A stretch of 19,273 nt of DNA from Rhodothermaeota bacterium MED-G12 (GCA_002457365.1 NTKP01000032.1:1-19273); one strand, 5' to 3'. Positions 15,850 through 19,273 are shown, counted from the first letter of the stretch. Notes: generated by a model not told the origin, from the letters alone. Numbers and translations are program-made.

Positions 15850-16512
15850 TTAATAGAAAATGCGAAGTACAATCCGTCTATTTTTTGCACGGTTTTCTAT
15901 AATGTCTTGTCCAAATTCGTCAGTATGGGGTGCATTAGGTAAGGGTTGTGTATCTGCATATCCTGACGCTTTGAGATTAGAGGCTTTGTAACCTTGACTG
16001 ACAAGAAATTTAACTACCTCAGAGGCTCTTGCTACAGAAAGTTCCCAGTTAGAAGGAAACCTTAATGTATTAATAGGAACATTATCCGTATGCCCTTCGA
16101 TATCTACTTTAAAATTGTAAAATGATAATCCATTTAGAGCATCAGATACTTTACTAATGATACCCTCACCTGAGGGTAATAATTCGGCACCACCTGAGAT
16201 ATAAAGTGAACTACTATTGAATGTCATGACAATTTCTTTGGTAGTCAAATCAATGTTAACTAAGTCTTGTTCACGTTCGTTAACTAAAACAGAATCAAGA
16301 TCAGCTTTAATTTCTGCTAACGGAGTTTTCTGTATTTCTGTACCCGTTACTTCTGATCGCATTCCTTCTTTCATTTGATCCCATAGAGCTTGATCAGGGG
16401 TACTTGAAGCAATTAGAATAGCAAAGAAAGCAAGCAGTAATGTAATCATATCACTGTAAGTAAGAAGATATTCAAGATCTTCTTCTGCTTCTTCTATTTC
16501 ATTGGAGCTCAT
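15850..16512 (-). CDS. motB: MotB/PomB-like stator subunit (single TM with conserved Asp, OmpA-like peptidoglycan-binding domain)
   Basis: The TM motif is YLLTYSDMITLLLAFFAILIA, where the Asp is equivalent to the proton- or ion-binding Asp of MotB. The C-terminal OmpA-like domain reads IEGHTDNVPI...FPSNWELSVARASEVVKFL...ASGYADTQPL...NRRIVLRI. Confidence 0.88.
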   Translation of the reverse strand: MSSNEIEEAEEDLEYLLTYSDMITLLLAFFAILIASSTPDQALWDQMKEGMRSEVTGTEIQKTPLAEIKADLDSVLVNEREQDLVNIDLTTKEIVMTFNSSSLYISGGAELLPSGEGIISKVSDALNGLSFYNFKVDIEGHTDNVPINTLRFPSNWELSVARASEVVKFLVSQGYKASNLKASGYADTQPLPNAPHTDEFGQDIIENRAKNRRIVLRIFY

Positions 16513-16548
16513 AACAAACTTATTTAAATTGTTGTGTTATCAGAATAG

Positions 16549-17370
16549 TTAATCATCCTTACCTTTACTTTTTCCGTCTTTCTTTTTGAAGTCTCGCTGT
16601 AAAAAAGTACTAAGTTTGTCCTGAATAAAAAATGCAGTTTTCTTTTCATTGATTAGAATGATTCCTTCAAGCATAAAAGTCTCTCTAAATCGATTTATAG
16701 AGGCTGAATTTTTTATTTTTTCTGCGACAGGATAAAAAATAAATCGGGAGAGTATAATACCATATAGTGTAGTCATCAAAGCAGCTGCAAGTCCAGGTCC
16801 CATGCTACTGGGATCGTCCAAGTTACCAAGCATATCAATTAGCCCAAATAATGTCCCGAACATACCAAATGCAGGTGCCGCTCCACCCATCGCGCGAAGG
16901 ACATCAACAACAACCATTTGCCTAAAATAGGCTTCTTGTATGTGGTTAGTTCCGAATTGACGAATATCATCACTTGAATAATTGGTACTTAAAAGTGAAA
17001 AAAGATAACCTTCTAGATATCCATTACGCTCTTCCTCTAATTTATCAAGTGCATTTACTCTATCTTTTCTAATTATATCGTTCCATTCAACTATTGCTTC
17101 AAAATCTTTTTGAAGAGATTTTTTATTTGCACCTGCTTGACTAAAAAAGTATCTCACTCCCGCTAAAGCCCTATTTACATACCTAGACTGGAAGGTAATG
17201 TAAGAGGCCATAAGTACACCCCCGACCACAATAACTAAACTAGGTATATTAAAAAATTGATTGCCTAAACCTTTAGTAAATTCGGTAACTTTAATTGTTT
17301 CAATTACACCAAAAATTATCAGTGATAAGCTGATAACTGTACCGATCATTGAGCCAAATGAAAATTTCAT
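16549..17370 (-). CDS. motA: MotA/PomA-like stator subunit (MotA/TolQ/ExbB proton-channel family)
   Basis: It has a four-TM topology. TM3/TM4 signatures are very PomA-like: AMGGAAPAFGMFGTLFGLIDMLGNL and GLAAALMTTLYGIILSRFIFYPVAEKI. A ~90-aa cytoplasmic loop carries the charged patch IIRKDRVNALDKLEEE. Confidence 0.9.
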   Translation of the reverse strand: MKFSFGSMIGTVISLSLIIFGVIETIKVTEFTKGLGNQFFNIPSLVIVVGGVLMASYITFQSRYVNRALAGVRYFFSQAGANKKSLQKDFEAIVEWNDIIRKDRVNALDKLEEERNGYLEGYLFSLLSTNYSSDDIRQFGTNHIQEAYFRQMVVVDVLRAMGGAAPAFGMFGTLFGLIDMLGNLDDPSSMGPGLAAALMTTLYGIILSRFIFYPVAEKIKNSASINRFRETFMLEGIILINEKKTAFFIQDKLSTFLQRDFKKKDGKSKGKDD

Positions 17371-17373
17371 TTA

Positions 17374-18030
17374 TTACTGTCCTCTGCGTATTTCTTGGAT
17401 TAAAGTTTCTAACTCAGGAATGCTAGGTATAGGAATGTTTGGATCCATTTGCACTGCTCGATTCCAATTGGCACGTGCTGCTGTGATATTTTCTAACATA
17501 AAAAAAATAGTTCCTTTAAGCGCGTAAGCGTCAGCTGTTTCTTGTATTTCGAGAGTTTTATCAATAAAATCTAATGATTGTCGATATTCTTCTAAATAAA
17601 ACAAATCTTGAGCTTTTCGATAGTTAGTAAGTAACATTTGTATATCTTTGGCTCTGCTTTGGACAATACTAGAATCAATTACAACAATAGAATCTTTATC
17701 CGCTGGCCGCATACCTCTTAAATCTAAATAAAACTGTTCTTTAGATGGATCTAGTTTAATTTGAATATTTGAACTCTCATTTAAATAATTGACGGTAATT
17801 ACTTCATTTAAAGGACTAGCATCGGTTGTGTTTACGGTATTGCGTTGAGTGTTGGTATTTGCCGTACGTCGGCTAGTATCTTCCAATCGTGAGGAAGTAT
17901 TATTTTGAACCGGCTCAGTGGTCGCGCAGCTTAATGTAAATGTAATTATGAAAGCTACCAAAAGTACTGTAAGCATAGTCTTAGTTATAAGTACAAAATG
18001 TTTAAAATCGTAAGACTGCATGGAATCCAA
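17374..18030 (-). CDS. Predicted lipoprotein with a Thr/Asn-rich linker and a C-terminal TPR-like domain
   Basis: The signal and lipobox are KHFVLITKTMLTVLLVAFIITFTLSCATTEP. The TPR-like helices are YRKAQDLFYLEEYRQSLDFIDKTLEIQETADAYALKGTIFFMLENITAARANWNRAVQMDPN. There is a 3-nt gap to motA. It overlaps the upstream gene by 29 nt (20 nt if Met4 is the start). Confidence 0.65.
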   Translation of the reverse strand: MDSMQSYDFKHFVLITKTMLTVLLVAFIITFTLSCATTEPVQNNTSSRLEDTSRRTANTNTQRNTVNTTDASPLNEVITVNYLNESSNIQIKLDPSKEQFYLDLRGMRPADKDSIVVIDSSIVQSRAKDIQMLLTNYRKAQDLFYLEEYRQSLDFIDKTLEIQETADAYALKGTIFFMLENITAARANWNRAVQMDPNIPIPSIPELETLIQEIRRGQ

Positions 18031-19165
18031 TCCCAGTTTGTTTATAAGTTATACGGTCTTTGTTTGGTAACTTAATAGTCTCACCAGCGAGTATTAGATT
18101 TCCAAATACCGAAAGCCCAATATTTTTACTCAGATTAAATTGCACTCCAGGTTCTAACATAAACATTTCACCATCCTTGTTACCAAGAGGAAATTGCATA
18201 TTTAGTTTGGAATAAAATACTACTCGATATTCATCTATATCAGTATTCTTTTCTGATAAGGCTTGGTAATAAATTAAACCCAAATCAAACAGTGATATAT
18301 CAAATATAGTTAGATCTCTATTTTGAGATCTAACTATATGATAGCCTGCTGTAAAACCAATATAAGAACTATTCTTTAAATCTAAAGGCTGTCTGTAAGA
18401 AAACGTTAAACTGAAATCTGTGAGGGCTTGTCGTAATAATGTATCGGCTTGATGTGGAAATATAGTTGATGTGGAATCAGTGCCTGCGCCAGTACTATCA
18501 TTACTTGATGTTGTAGTCGAGTATTGATTCCTATACCAGCTATCGGAGGATCTAGTTGTAATTCCAAAACTGACCAATTTTTGTGAACCTTGATTCAATG
18601 TAGGTAAAACTATAGGTGGGTTTGATATAAATGAGTTACTCCAAACTACTTCCCGTGATTGAGGGTTCATAACGCGAATTCCAATGACAAGTCCTTCTGG
18701 TTCTCTCCTTTGCAAACTTAATTCTACTAAACCTTGGACACCATATTTATAAGAAATTTCTTCTAACATATCAGGTGATACATCTGCTAAGGACCTTCCT
18801 TGCATATTTAAAATTTGTAGTGTTGAATCGTTTCCTATAATCTTGAGTTTATCATTTGGTTCTAGTTCTGGTGGTGATAATACGGTAAGTCCAGCATACT
18901 GGCGCATTGAATATTCGATCTCAGCCCTTAAATATTCTACTTCTTCATTTGTAAACCGTAGGGCTGAATAATTTATTTTATAAATTGCTATACGACGTAC
19001 ACTAACAGGAAAATCAGCTAAATTTGGATGTAACTGTTCTTGGATTTTTTCAATCATATATGGATCACCTTGCTCATGGGTGTAAATCTGAGCAGAGACT
19101 GAGACTGTATTAAATAATCCTCCAAAAGTAAGAATCAATAGTAGATTGAATAATCTTTTCATCAT
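18002..19165 (-). CDS. Secreted protein of unknown function: N-terminal alpha/beta domain plus a C-terminal beta-barrel-like region (putative outer-membrane protein)
   Basis: The signal peptide is MMKRLFNLLLILTFGGLFNTVSVSAQ. The N-domain pattern RRIAIYKINYSALRFTNEEVEYLRAEIEYSMRQYAGLTVL resembles TolB-N/CsgG/FlgO-type folds by eye. The C-terminal half has alternating beta patterning and ends GIGFHAVLRF, an aromatic terminus typical of outer-membrane proteins. Confidence 0.65.
   Translation of the reverse strand: MMKRLFNLLLILTFGGLFNTVSVSAQIYTHEQGDPYMIEKIQEQLHPNLADFPVSVRRIAIYKINYSALRFTNEEVEYLRAEIEYSMRQYAGLTVLSPPELEPNDKLKIIGNDSTLQILNMQGRSLADVSPDMLEEISYKYGVQGLVELSLQRREPEGLVIGIRVMNPQSREVVWSNSFISNPPIVLPTLNQGSQKLVSFGITTRSSDSWYRNQYSTTTSSNDSTGAGTDSTSTIFPHQADTLLRQALTDFSLTFSYRQPLDLKNSSYIGFTAGYHIVRSQNRDLTIFDISLFDLGLIYYQALSEKNTDIDEYRVVFYSKLNMQFPLGNKDGEMFMLEPGVQFNLSKNIGLSVFGNLILAGETIKLPNKDRITYKQTGIGFHAVLRF
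18304..18339. repeat. Perfect 15-bp inverted repeat with a 6-nt spacer inside the putative outer-membrane protein CDS
   Basis: ATATAGTTAGATCTC lies at 18304-18318, the spacer tatttt follows, and GAGATCTAACTATAT lies at 18325-18339. Each arm contains a palindromic AGATCT. On the minus strand it encodes IVRSQNRDLTIF. Confidence 0.9.
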
Positions 19166-19273
19166 CTATGCTTCTGTTTTCATTTTACGACGTACTGCGT
19201 AAAGAATGGTTTTTTGAGCATCCTCTACTTCTGAATTAGTAGCTTCAGAAGGCATTTCTATTTCACTTAAAAT
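19166..19273 (-). CDS. 3' end (35 codons) of an upstream gene of unknown function, truncated by the window edge
   Basis: The minus-strand frame is open from the window edge: ILSEIEMPSEATNSEVEDAQKTILYAVRRKMKTEA*. Its TAG stop (19166-19168) directly abuts the ATG of the next gene (19163-19165), which suggests translational coupling. It is too short to classify. Confidence 0.35.
   Translation of the reverse strand: MLSEIEMPSEATNSEVEDAQKTILYAVRRKMKTEA

What the first reader, a model, noticed from the sequence alone, without database searches (positions are those of the whole stretch)
15850..19273. PomA/MotB-type stator unit in one operon with a TPR lipoprotein and a beta-barrel-like outer-membrane protein
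At least five minus-strand genes are packed almost without gaps. The unknown partial gene's TAG abuts the next ATG. The 387-aa putative outer-membrane protein overlaps the TPR lipoprotein gene by 20-29 nt. A 3-nt gap then leads to motA, and a 36-nt gap leads to motB.

The MotA and MotB homologues carry the full ion-channel signatures: PAFGMFGT, YGIILSRFIFYP, and the TM Asp in YSDMITLLLAFF. No flagellar rotor, hook or export gene is visible in the window.

A 5:2-type ion-driven motor coupled to a periplasmic TPR lipoprotein and an outer-membrane component could be an envelope-spanning energy-transducing machine not yet described for this lineage. The conservative alternative is a flagellar stator with lineage-specific scaffold proteins, analogous to Vibrio MotX (Sel1/TPR-like), MotY and FlgO/FlgP, or to Campylobacter PflA/PflB. 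That would still be an uncharacterised accessory set.
Basis: partly seen in the sequence, partly recalled or inferred. Interest (0 to 1): 0.7.

Follow-up and report, generated by a model that had tools for sequence, protein, structure and literature searches.

The report
Stand-alone rotor–stator motor without flagellum
A five-gene operon in marine Balneolaceae and many uncultured bacteria encodes the torque-generating core of the flagellar motor (one protein fusing the FliF ring domain to FliG, plus MotA and MotB) with an outer-membrane barrel protein and a TPR lipoprotein but no other flagellar part nearby, which points to an undescribed rotary machine spanning the cell envelope.

Summary
One claim is wrong. 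The truncated "unknown" gene at the window edge is a rotor gene.

Read in full on longer contigs, it encodes a 642-aa protein. It has a signal peptide, a periplasmic FliF RBM3-like ring domain, one TM helix, a FliF-like C-terminal helix, and FliG N, M and C domains. It is a natural FliF–FliG fusion.

The order FliFG – barrel protein (TolB-N/LpoB-like domain plus 8-strand barrel) – TPR lipoprotein – MotA – MotB holds in every sufficiently long Balneolaceae locus. It also holds in 7 of 10 distant loci (GC 32–65%). The flanks are always unrelated housekeeping genes and never flagellar genes.

All five genes are under purifying selection. The key rotor–stator residues are conserved: FliG R281 equivalent 44/45, MotA acidic partners about 39/46, MotB Asp 45/45. 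The FliM-binding EHPQR motif is not conserved.

Best reading: a flagellum-independent, probably Na+-driven and unidirectional, rotor–stator motor coupled to the outer membrane. Its output is unknown. I found no description of it in the searchable literature. I could not test whether the host genomes lack flagella.

The parts
19166..19273 (-). 3' end (35 codons plus TAG) of the FliF-FliG fusion ('FliFG') gene. The full gene encodes 642 aa and is seen on L001:8072-10000. Its layout is: signal peptide, FliF RBM3-like periplasmic domain (about aa 30-185), TM helix (about aa 250-272), FliF-like C-terminal helix (about aa 330-354), then FliG_N, FliG_M and FliG_C.
18002..19165 (-). 387-aa outer-membrane protein. 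It has a signal peptide (...VSAQ), a periplasmic alpha/beta domain (aa 38-180) with a TolB-N / LpoB-C / PelC / GNA1162-like fold, and an 8-strand beta-barrel (aa 196-386) ending in ...RF.
   Evidence: The model has pLDDT 71. No Pfam family matches. The family alignment is A1. Its N-domain is homologous to the positionally equivalent genes in distant loci (hhalign 95.5% and 93.7%).
17374..18030 (-). TPR lipoprotein of 215 aa (ATG at 18021) or 218 aa (TTG at 18030). It has a lipobox-like ...FTLSC, a low-complexity linker, a conserved beta-rich segment, and a C-terminal TPR.
   Evidence: Pfam TPR_1 scores 3e-7. The Cys after the hydrophobic region is conserved in 15 of 17 diverse members. Its position is conserved.
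16549..17370 (-). MotA/PomA-type stator A subunit, 273 aa.
   Evidence: Pfam MotA_ExbB scores 2e-19. The best NCBIfam models are MotP and PomA, both below their cut-offs. The closest solved structure is Vibrio PomA at 2e-28, aligned over residues 24-243. The basic and acidic rotor-contact residues, both Pro residues and the TT pair are conserved across 46 sequences.
15850..16512 (-). MotB/PomB-type stator B subunit, 220 aa. It has a plug, a TM helix with the channel Asp (YSD), and an OmpA-like peptidoglycan-binding domain.
   Evidence: Pfam MotB_plug scores 3.6e-11 and OmpA 6e-13. The best NCBIfam models are MotD and MotS, below their cut-offs. The Asp is present in 45 of 45 aligned sequences.

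Best explanation
The operon encodes a self-contained rotary motor that does not depend on a flagellum.

Shown by sequence and fold evidence:
- One protein joins, in the same order as the flagellar proteins, the FliF S-ring building domain (RBM3), a TM helix, the FliF C-terminal helix and a complete FliG (N, M, C).
- MotA and MotB are of the flagellar (PomAB-like) type. They have a plug, the channel Asp, both conserved prolines, an OmpA-like anchor and the charged rotor-contact residues.
- The other two genes encode an outer-membrane 8-strand barrel with a TolB-N/LpoB-like periplasmic domain, and a TPR lipoprotein.
- The five genes are inherited as a unit.

Inferred:
- FliFG subunits assemble through their RBM3 domains into an inner-membrane ring. 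This places a ring of FliG torque helices on the cytoplasmic face.
- MotA5B2 units are anchored to peptidoglycan. They are probably Na+-driven. They turn and push on FliG_C, mainly through the acidic MotA residues pairing with the FliG R281-equivalent Arg, and this spins the ring.
- The FliM-binding EHPQR motif is not kept and no FliM/FliN gene is nearby. The motor therefore probably has no CheY-controlled switch.
- In the periplasm, the short collar of the ring (conserved LPGLP insertion) engages the TPR lipoprotein and the periplasmic domain of the barrel protein. Torque or position is thereby passed to the outer membrane or cell surface.

The final output is unknown. Candidates are surface movement, envelope remodelling, or driving a partner encoded elsewhere.
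For: FliG part:
- Pfam FliG_C scores 1e-18 and FliG_M 5e-8.
- PDB FliG scores 3e-16 and aligns with Salmonella FliG residues 104-318.
- A profile of aa 305-432 has FliG_N (5tdy_B) as its top PDB hit at 5e-5.

FliF part:
- A profile of the periplasmic domain has FliF as its top PDB hits (0.0019 and 0.0084). It matches both halves of RBM3.
- 20 of 26 diverse members hit Pfam YscJ_FliF_C, best E 4.3e-5.
- In Foldseek, FliF RBM3/collar structures are the only family after FliG with high probability (6scn_A, prob 0.97).
- A profile of aa 312-356 has the last 18 residues of Salmonella FliF as its top PDB hit (E 0.042, marginal).

Rotor-stator contacts:
- FliG R281 corresponds to R603, present in 44 of 45 sequences. 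D289 corresponds to E611, acidic in 26 of 45.
- MotA has a basic residue at the PomA R88 position in 44 of 46 sequences. E111 is present in 39 of 46 and E113 in 38 of 46.
- MotB Asp is present in 45 of 45.

Unit of inheritance:
- The same gene order is found in all Balneolaceae loci with enough DNA, down to 42% FliFG and 31% barrel-protein identity.
- It is also found in 7 of 10 distant loci with GC 0.32-0.65.
- The flanks differ and contain no flagellar genes.

Other points:
- dN/dS is 0.02-0.25 for all five genes.
- Engineered FliF-FliG fusions assemble rings (PMC6079021, PMC10941966), so a covalent 1:1 rotor is plausible.
Against: - No experiment or multimer model was available. Ring formation, rotation and contact with the barrel protein and the TPR lipoprotein are all inferred.
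- The periplasmic part of the FliFG model has low confidence (pLDDT below 50). The individual FliF matches are weak: E between 1e-2 and 1e-5, and the C-tail match is only E 0.042.
- Two of the five canonical FliG charged residues are not kept. D288 is Ser and R297 is Thr.
- Three distant loci break the module (L048, L049, L052). The five proteins therefore need not always work together.
- I could not check whether the host genomes also carry a normal flagellar gene set.
- No output component was identified.
Confidence: 0.55

Rival explanations
1. This is the stator locus of an ordinary flagellum. The organism is flagellated. MotAB drive the normal rotor, the TPR and barrel proteins are lineage-specific scaffolds (like MotX/MotY/FlgO/FlgP or PflA/PflB), and FliFG is an accessory or paralogous rotor protein.
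For: MotA, MotB and the FliG part are of true flagellar type. Balneola vulgaris was described as flagellated (PMC5167729, citing Urios 2006). Some Balneolaceae (Aliifodinibius) carry near-complete flagellar gene sets (PMC9909488). TPR and TolB-N-like proteins do serve as flagellar scaffolds in other bacteria (my own knowledge).
Against: - No flagellar gene lies within 8-10 kb in any of more than 50 loci.
- The module has its own fused rotor. That rotor lacks RBM1/RBM2, which house the export gate.
- The module sits among housekeeping genes that differ between lineages.
- The B. vulgaris genome is reported to lack KEGG flagellar-assembly genes (PMC9909488).
- Many loci carry T9SS markers typical of lineages without flagella.
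Confidence: 0.12
2. This is a non-rotary energy transducer or sensor. The FliFG ring is a static platform that recruits and gates MotAB. The ion flow or MotB conformational change is used, Tol/Ton-like, to act on the outer-membrane protein or to signal. No ring rotates.
For: The barrel protein's periplasmic domain has a TolB-N/LpoB-like fold. The TPR lipoprotein is a typical scaffold. No axial or output component is encoded. The FliG charged ridge is only partly kept.
Against: The very residues that transmit torque in flagella are the best conserved: the R281 equivalent in 44 of 45 sequences and the MotA acidic residues in about 39 of 46. The MFXF-like hinge (FIGF) is kept. No TolA/TonB-like protein is present. 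MotA matches TolQ and ExbB only at E 0.002-0.01.
Confidence: 0.2
3. This is a decaying remnant of a lost flagellum with no present function.
For: Loss of flagella is common, and isolated rotor genes occur in 11% of non-motile species (PMC12199754). PMC9909488 reads partial flagellar sets in Balneolaceae as gradual loss.
Against: dN/dS is 0.02-0.25 for all five genes. The FliG region is near-invariant across Balneolaceae. The same order is kept across lineages with GC 0.32-0.65. More than 100 clusters at 50% identity share the architecture.
Confidence: 0.03
4. This is a Zorya-like anti-phage defence system built on a MotAB homologue.
For: MotB matches ZorB models (7e-18). The module has lower GC than its flanks in this lineage. 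Part of it shows recombination between close relatives.
Against: MotA, FliFG, the barrel protein and the TPR protein have no PADLOC match. The ZorB match is generic MotB similarity. No ZorC/ZorD-like or nuclease gene is present. The module is a stable single-copy chromosomal feature in all 39 Balneolaceae species found.
Confidence: 0.03

Closest known systems
Flagellar motor core: MS-ring (FliF), FliG and the MotAB/PomAB stator
   Same: The RBM3 ring domain, the FliF C-terminal helix and FliG N, M and C domains are homologous. The stator is PomAB-like, with a plug, the channel Asp, an OmpA-like anchor and the charged torque-transmitting residues.
   Different: FliF and FliG are one polypeptide. 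RBM1/RBM2 are absent. The EHPQR FliM-binding motif is not kept. No export apparatus, rod, hook, filament, or FliM/FliN gene lies in or near the operon. The partners are instead an outer-membrane barrel protein and a TPR lipoprotein.
Engineered FliF-FliG fusion proteins of Salmonella and Vibrio
   Same: FliF and FliG are linked covalently 1:1, and the fusion forms rings (PMC6079021, PMC10941966).
   Different: Those fusions are laboratory constructs of full-length FliF inside a complete flagellum. This one is natural, shortened to a single RBM, and has no flagellar context.
Periplasmic and outer-membrane scaffolds of high-torque flagellar motors (Vibrio MotX/MotY/FlgO/FlgP/FlgT; Campylobacter/Helicobacter PflA/PflB)
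   Same: A TPR protein and an outer-membrane-associated protein are encoded with a stator. The fold class of the barrel protein's N-domain (TolB-N/LpoB/PelC-like) is one that forms rings under the outer membrane (my own knowledge).
   Different: No sequence-family match to any of these proteins was found (Pfam and NCBIfam). Those scaffolds surround a rod, and none is encoded here.
Other 5:2 motor systems: ExbBD-TonB, TolQR-TolA-TolB-Pal, GldLM/PorLM, AglRQS, ZorAB
   Same: An ion-driven inner-membrane motor is coupled to processes at the outer membrane.
   Different: In those systems the output is the extended B-subunit or a TonB/TolA-type partner. Here the A-subunit has the flagellar torque interface and a FliG partner. 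MotA matches TolQ and ExbB only marginally and ZorA not at all.

Membership tests
MotA/PomA flagellar stator A subunit (the 'FIT' group of PMC12505986) | MotA_ExbB channel domain with the two conserved prolines | tested here: met
   Pfam scores 2e-19. P in PAFGMFGT and P in FIFYP are present in 46 of 46 sequences.
MotA/PomA flagellar stator A subunit (the 'FIT' group of PMC12505986) | Expanded cytoplasmic torque-generating interface with charged rotor-contact residues (E. coli R90/E98; PomA R88, K89, E96-E99) | tested here: met
   The protein aligns to PomA 24-243 with no loss of the cytoplasmic domain. K/R is present in 44 of 46 sequences, E111 in 39 of 46 and E113 in 38 of 46.
MotA/PomA flagellar stator A subunit (the 'FIT' group of PMC12505986) | Score above the curated equivalog cut-off (MotP, PomA, MotA) | tested here: not met
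   The best score is 132 bits against a cut-off of 394 (MotP), and 124 against 341 (PomA). This is a divergent branch.
MotA/PomA flagellar stator A subunit (the 'FIT' group of PMC12505986) | Works in a flagellum (genome has a flagellar regulon) | not testable with these tools
   Only 10 kb or less of flank could be read. No flagellar genes are seen there. The literature on Balneola is contradictory.
MotB/PomB stator B subunit | Plug, TM helix with the essential Asp, and an OmpA-like peptidoglycan-binding domain | tested here: met
   MotB_plug scores 3.6e-11 and OmpA 6e-13. The Asp is present in 45 of 45 sequences. Equivalog cut-offs are not reached (135 against 283).
FliG (rotor / switch protein) | FliG_N, FliG_M and FliG_C domains in order | tested here: met
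   Foldseek ranks 1-13 are full-length FliG at prob 1.0.
FliG (rotor / switch protein) | Charged torque-helix residues K264, R281, D288, D289, R297 | tested here: inconclusive
   In this protein they read R, R, S, E, T. Family-wide, only the R281 equivalent is near-invariant (44 of 45). The D289 equivalent is acidic in 26 of 45.
FliG (rotor / switch protein) | EHPQR motif that binds FliM | tested here: not met
   The motif reads E-S-N-E ... K in this protein. Only the Glu is conserved in the family (39 of 45).
FliG (rotor / switch protein) | Soluble cytoplasmic protein of about 330 aa bound non-covalently to FliF | tested here: not met
   The protein has 642 aa with a signal peptide, a periplasmic domain and a TM helix.
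FliF (MS-ring protein) | RBM3 / S-ring domain (Pfam YscJ_FliF_C) | tested here: met
   20 of 26 members match, best 4.3e-5. The top PDB profile hits are FliF. Foldseek finds FliF RBM3/collar at prob 0.97. Each line is individually weak, but they agree.
FliF (MS-ring protein) | RBM1 and RBM2 (Pfam YscJ_FliF), which form the inner ring around the export gate | tested here: not met
   No match was found, and there is no room for them. Only about 155 residues lie between the signal peptide and the linker.
FliF (MS-ring protein) | C-terminal cytoplasmic helix that binds FliG_N | tested here: inconclusive
   The top PDB hit of the 45-column profile is FliF 543-560 (DPRVVALVIRQWMSNDHE), but at E 0.042.
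Tol-Pal / TonB-ExbBD systems | TolQ/ExbB-type A subunit, a TolA/TonB-type partner, TolB and Pal | tested here: not met
   TolQ scores E 0.0017 and ExbB E 0.011, far below their cut-offs. No TolA/TonB-like gene is in the operon. The only resemblance is at fold level, between the barrel protein's N-domain and the TolB N-domain.
Zorya defence system | ZorA with a long tail, ZorB, and ZorC/D or ZorE effectors | tested here: not met
   PADLOC gives generic ZorB hits only. MotA has no ZorA hit, and the other three proteins have no hits.
Vibrio H/T-ring or Campylobacter PflA/PflB scaffold proteins | Sequence-family membership (FlgO, FlgP, FlgT, MotX, MotY, PflA, PflB) | tested here: not met
   No Pfam or NCBIfam match other than generic TPR repeats was found. 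Functional analogy remains possible.

The most novel reading that the evidence does not exclude
A widespread, previously undescribed class of bacterial rotary machine. It is a minimal single-chain MS-ring/FliG rotor turned by flagellar-type MotAB stators, working without any type III export apparatus, rod or filament. It is coupled instead to an outer-membrane barrel protein and a lipoprotein. It would be either a radical reduction of the flagellum put to a new use, or a relative of the pre-flagellar rotor-stator module.
Probability: 0.45. Interest if true: 0.92.

Novelty: new variant of a known kind. Interest (0 to 1): 0.82.

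Why it matters
- It would be the first rotor–stator pair of flagellar type shown to work outside a flagellum. 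That would add a member to the small set of ion-driven rotary machines.
- A rotor made of one polypeptide, with only four partners, would be a very simple system for studying torque generation by structure and reconstitution.
- It bears on the old question of how the flagellar motor arose. The question is whether rotation (FliF/FliG plus MotAB) can exist and be useful without type III secretion. A phylogeny of this family against canonical FliF, FliG and MotA would make that testable.
- Recent surveys note rotor genes in non-motile species and ask what they do (PMC12199754). This module is a concrete candidate answer.
- There is a practical consequence. These genes are annotated as 'flagellar motor switch protein FliG' and 'chemotaxis protein MotA'. 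In genomes that may have no flagellum, this produces spurious 'incomplete flagellar pathway' calls.

Tried and rejected
- **Defence system.** The PADLOC scan gave only generic MotB/ZorB similarity. Rejected.
- **Riboswitch or leader RNA upstream of the operon.** There was no Rfam hit and no covariation. The strong conservation there looks like DNA-level regulation instead.
- **Internal promoters or terminators in the cluster.** None was found above chance.
- **Taxonomy of distant family members.** Three cluster look-ups gave only '[bacterium]' or no name. A profile search was swamped by Balneolaceae. The taxonomy stays unresolved beyond T9SS markers in the flanks.
- **Genome-wide flagellar gene check.** This was not possible.
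- **Literature.** Eight searches on FliG-like, non-flagellar stators, FliF-FliG fusion, Balneola and Bacteroidota found no description of this module.
- **Horizontal acquisition.** The low GC of the module was considered as a sign of recent transfer. In other lineages the module GC tracks the host, so the family is an old resident. The local dip is unexplained.

Full report
**1. What is in the window**

Five genes lie on the minus strand at 15850-19273.
- The stop codon of the truncated gene (19166-19168) abuts the ATG of a 387-aa gene (18002-19165).
- The 387-aa gene overlaps a TPR gene by 20 or 29 nt (17374-18021 or 17374-18030).
- A 3-nt gap precedes motA (16549-17370).
- A 36-nt gap precedes motB (15850-16512).

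Pfam finds MotA_ExbB, MotB_plug plus OmpA, and TPR_1. It finds nothing for the 387-aa protein. NCBIfam places MotA nearest MotP and PomA, and MotB nearest MotD and MotS. All scores are far below the curated cut-offs. No internal promoter-like or terminator-like sites exceed chance.

The 35 codons of the truncated gene already give a weak FliG_C match (E 0.0085).

**2. The truncated gene is a FliF–FliG fusion**

Exact-match look-up of the 387-aa protein found longer contigs from marine metagenomes and MAGs. There the upstream gene encodes 642 aa.

The cytoplasmic half is a full FliG:
- Pfam FliG_C scores 1e-18 and FliG_M 5e-8.
- PDB FliG scores 3e-16 and aligns to Salmonella FliG 104-318.
- A profile of aa 305-432 has the FliG N-terminal domain (5tdy_B) as its best PDB hit, at 5e-5.

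The N-terminal half consists of a signal peptide, about 155 conserved periplasmic residues, a variable linker and one TM helix. Three independent lines identify the periplasmic domain as the FliF RBM3 (S-ring) domain:
- 20 of 26 diverse members match Pfam YscJ_FliF_C, best 4.3e-5.
- The domain profile's top PDB hits are FliF (0.0019 and 0.0084). They match both halves of RBM3, at FliF 237-291 and 420-453.
- In Foldseek, FliF RBM3/collar structures are the only family after FliG with high probability (6scn_A, prob 0.97).

The signature VLVDTsY...RGD...V....FP mirrors FliF's LSVAVVVNY...RGDTLNVVNSPF. That FliF sequence is quoted from memory and is consistent with the alignments.

Just after the TM helix, a 45-column profile has the last 18 residues of Salmonella FliF as its best PDB hit (DPRVVALVIRQWMSNDHE, E 0.042, marginal). 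That stretch is the FliG-binding helix.

The order RBM3 – TM – FliF tail – FliG N-M-C matches an end-to-end FliF–FliG fusion. FliF's RBM1 and RBM2 are missing.

**3. The other two proteins**

The 387-aa protein was modelled from 26 family members, with pLDDT 71.
- It has a signal peptide.
- It has an alpha/beta domain at aa 38-180. The nearest solved folds are the TolB N-domain, the LpoB C-domain, GNA1162 and PelC.
- It has an 8-strand barrel like OmpA, OmpW and Ail, ending in ...RF.
- Its most conserved stretch is SPPELEPNDKxKIxGxDSxLQ...GRSxA (aa 97-131). The model predicts this stretch with low confidence, so it may be a partner interface.

The TPR protein has a hydrophobic segment followed by Cys in 15 of 17 diverse homologues. 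It is therefore very probably a lipoprotein.

**4. The five genes are one conserved unit**

A scan of one genome per species found 39 loci. All are Balneolaceae, including cultured Balneola sp. EhC07. The scan used two family-specific peptide patterns, so it could miss other taxa.

Every locus with enough DNA keeps the order FliFG – barrel protein – TPR – MotA – MotB. This holds down to 42% FliFG and 31% barrel-protein identity. The flanking genes change between subgroups:
- SufE and SRAP in this lineage.
- rpoBC and fadB in EhC07.
- Alpha-2-macroglobulin/PBP1C and eutBC in another subgroup.

An exhaustive search of 1.84 billion representative proteins found 100 representatives at E below 1e-30. 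Most of the listed hits are 580-750 aa long and share the architecture of signal peptide, about 200 aa, TM helix, then FliG.

I examined ten distant contexts:
- Seven have the same five-gene order: L046, L047, L050, L051, L053, L054 (cut at motB) and L055.
- One has FliFG-MotA-MotB only (L052).
- Two lack adjacent motAB (L048, L049).

The loci span GC 0.32-0.65. Several carry T9SS markers (Por_Secre_tail, PorZ, PorP/SprF-like). One lies beside leuS-lptE-holA.

The barrel protein's N-domain is homologous in the two most distant loci tested (hhalign 95.5% and 93.7%).

No flagellar gene appears in any flank. dN/dS is 0.02-0.25 for all five genes.

**5. Residues that matter**

Aligned to Salmonella FliG, the five charged torque-helix residues read as follows:

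| Salmonella FliG | This protein |
|---|---|
| K264 | R586 |
| R281 | R603 |
| D288 | S610 |
| D289 | E611 |
| R297 | T619 |

Across 45 diverse family members the R281 equivalent is Arg in 44. The D289 equivalent is acidic in 26.

The MFXF hinge reads FIGF. The EHPQR motif, which binds FliM, is not kept apart from its Glu.

MotA is closest to Na+-driven PomA (2e-28). Across 46 sequences:
- The PomA R88 position is basic in 44.
- Two nearby Glu residues are present in 38 and 39.
- Both channel prolines are present in all 46.
- The TT pair is kept in 43 and 46 of 46.

MotB's channel Asp is present in 45 of 45.

In E. coli the contacts are R90 with D288/D289 and E98 with R281 (PMC12505986). The E98–R281-type pair is thus the strongly conserved one here.

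By the criteria of PMC12505986, this stator is of the flagellar ('FIT') type. It has an expanded cytoplasmic interface, a plug and an OmpA-like domain.

**6. How it most likely works**

Shown:
- The parts list and its homologies.
- The conservation of the module as a unit.
- Purifying selection on all five genes.

Inferred:
- FliFG forms an inner-membrane ring through RBM3. This matches what FliF does and what engineered FliF–FliG fusions do (PMC6079021, PMC10941966).
- Peptidoglycan-anchored MotA5B2 units, probably Na+-driven, turn the ring through FliG_C.
- With no FliM-binding motif there is probably no switch.
- The periplasmic face of the ring meets the TPR lipoprotein and the TolB-N-like domain of the barrel protein. 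This links the motor to the outer membrane.

The output is unknown.

I give this reading 0.55. The rivals are:
- A static platform or Tol-like transducer: 0.2.
- Part of an ordinary flagellum: 0.12.
- A relic: 0.03.
- A defence system: 0.03. PADLOC finds only generic ZorB similarity.

**7. Is the host flagellated?**

I could not test this. The literature is mixed:
- B. vulgaris is listed as flagellated (PMC5167729).
- A KEGG survey of 16 Balneolaceae type strains reports flagellar-assembly genes in Aliifodinibius but not in Balneola, Gracilimonas (two of the three species surveyed) and others (PMC9909488).

Even in a flagellated host, a rotor without RBM1/RBM2 could not house the export gate. 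The module would therefore still be a separate device.

**8. Novelty**

Eight literature searches found no description of this module.

[quoted passage not shown] It leaves their function open (PMC12199754).

The components are known kinds. The assembly is new: a stand-alone fused rotor plus stator plus outer-membrane partners. I rate it a new variant of a known kind, with a substantial chance that it is a new class of machine.

Noticed in passing
window 15850-19273 versus 1-15849: The module has GC 0.345 against 0.428 for the rest of the window. In other lineages the module's GC follows the host (0.32-0.65), so the local dip is unexplained.
   Followed up: partly
L001 versus L008 (the same genes as window 15116-19273, plus the upstream genes): Synonymous divergence between two close relatives is mosaic. 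SufE is 0.12, FliFG 0.90, the barrel protein 0.81, TPR 1.11, MotA 0.29, MotB 0.16 and SRAP 0.11. The FliFG–barrel protein–TPR segment seems to have been swapped by recombination as a block.
   Followed up: partly
L001:7811-8071 (upstream of the FliFG gene, outside the window): This 260-nt AT-rich intergenic region is 83% conserved across species whose coding dS is about 1. It has a repeated TGTGGA(T/A)AA motif and an invariant GGGGG before the start codon. There is no Rfam match and no covariation. It is probably a set of protein-binding regulatory sites.
   Followed up: partly
window 18773-18877 (barrel protein aa 97-131): This is the most conserved stretch of the barrel protein (SPPELEPNDK.KI.G.DS.LQ...GRS.A, many invariant columns). 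It is modelled with pLDDT below 50. It is a candidate docking loop for a partner.
   Followed up: no
window 5-9444: This is a T9SS-related cluster. It holds a 787-aa protein with a Por_Secre_tail sorting domain, a 527-aa protein with no family, a CarboxypepD_reg-type TonB-dependent receptor, PorV and an NHL-repeat protein. It shows that the host has type IX secretion.
   Followed up: partly
window 13043-15832: DinB (translesion polymerase) and an SRAP (SOS-response-associated peptidase) lie on the minus strand. They flank a plus-strand 220-aa His/Arg-rich ORF (14433-15095) with no family match. The trio is conserved in close relatives. SRAP starts only 17 nt after motB in this lineage, but it is not part of the module elsewhere.
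   Followed up: no
L053:398-4419: One distant copy of the module lies beside leuS-lptE-holA. To my knowledge that trio is typical of Proteobacteria. The family may therefore extend beyond T9SS-bearing lineages.
   Followed up: no
L052:7066-13781; L048:3930-7650; L049:3575-8715: Variant layouts exist. One has a 754-aa FliFG with MotA-MotB but no barrel protein or TPR, preceded by a 966-aa unknown protein. One has FliFG–barrel protein–TPR without adjacent motAB. One has barrel protein–TPR–FliFG followed by a PorP/SprF-like protein.
   Followed up: partly
literature (PMC5167729, PMC9909488): Balneola vulgaris is recorded as flagellated. Yet its genome is reported to lack KEGG flagellar-assembly genes. 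If both are true, what was seen as flagella needs another look.
   Followed up: no
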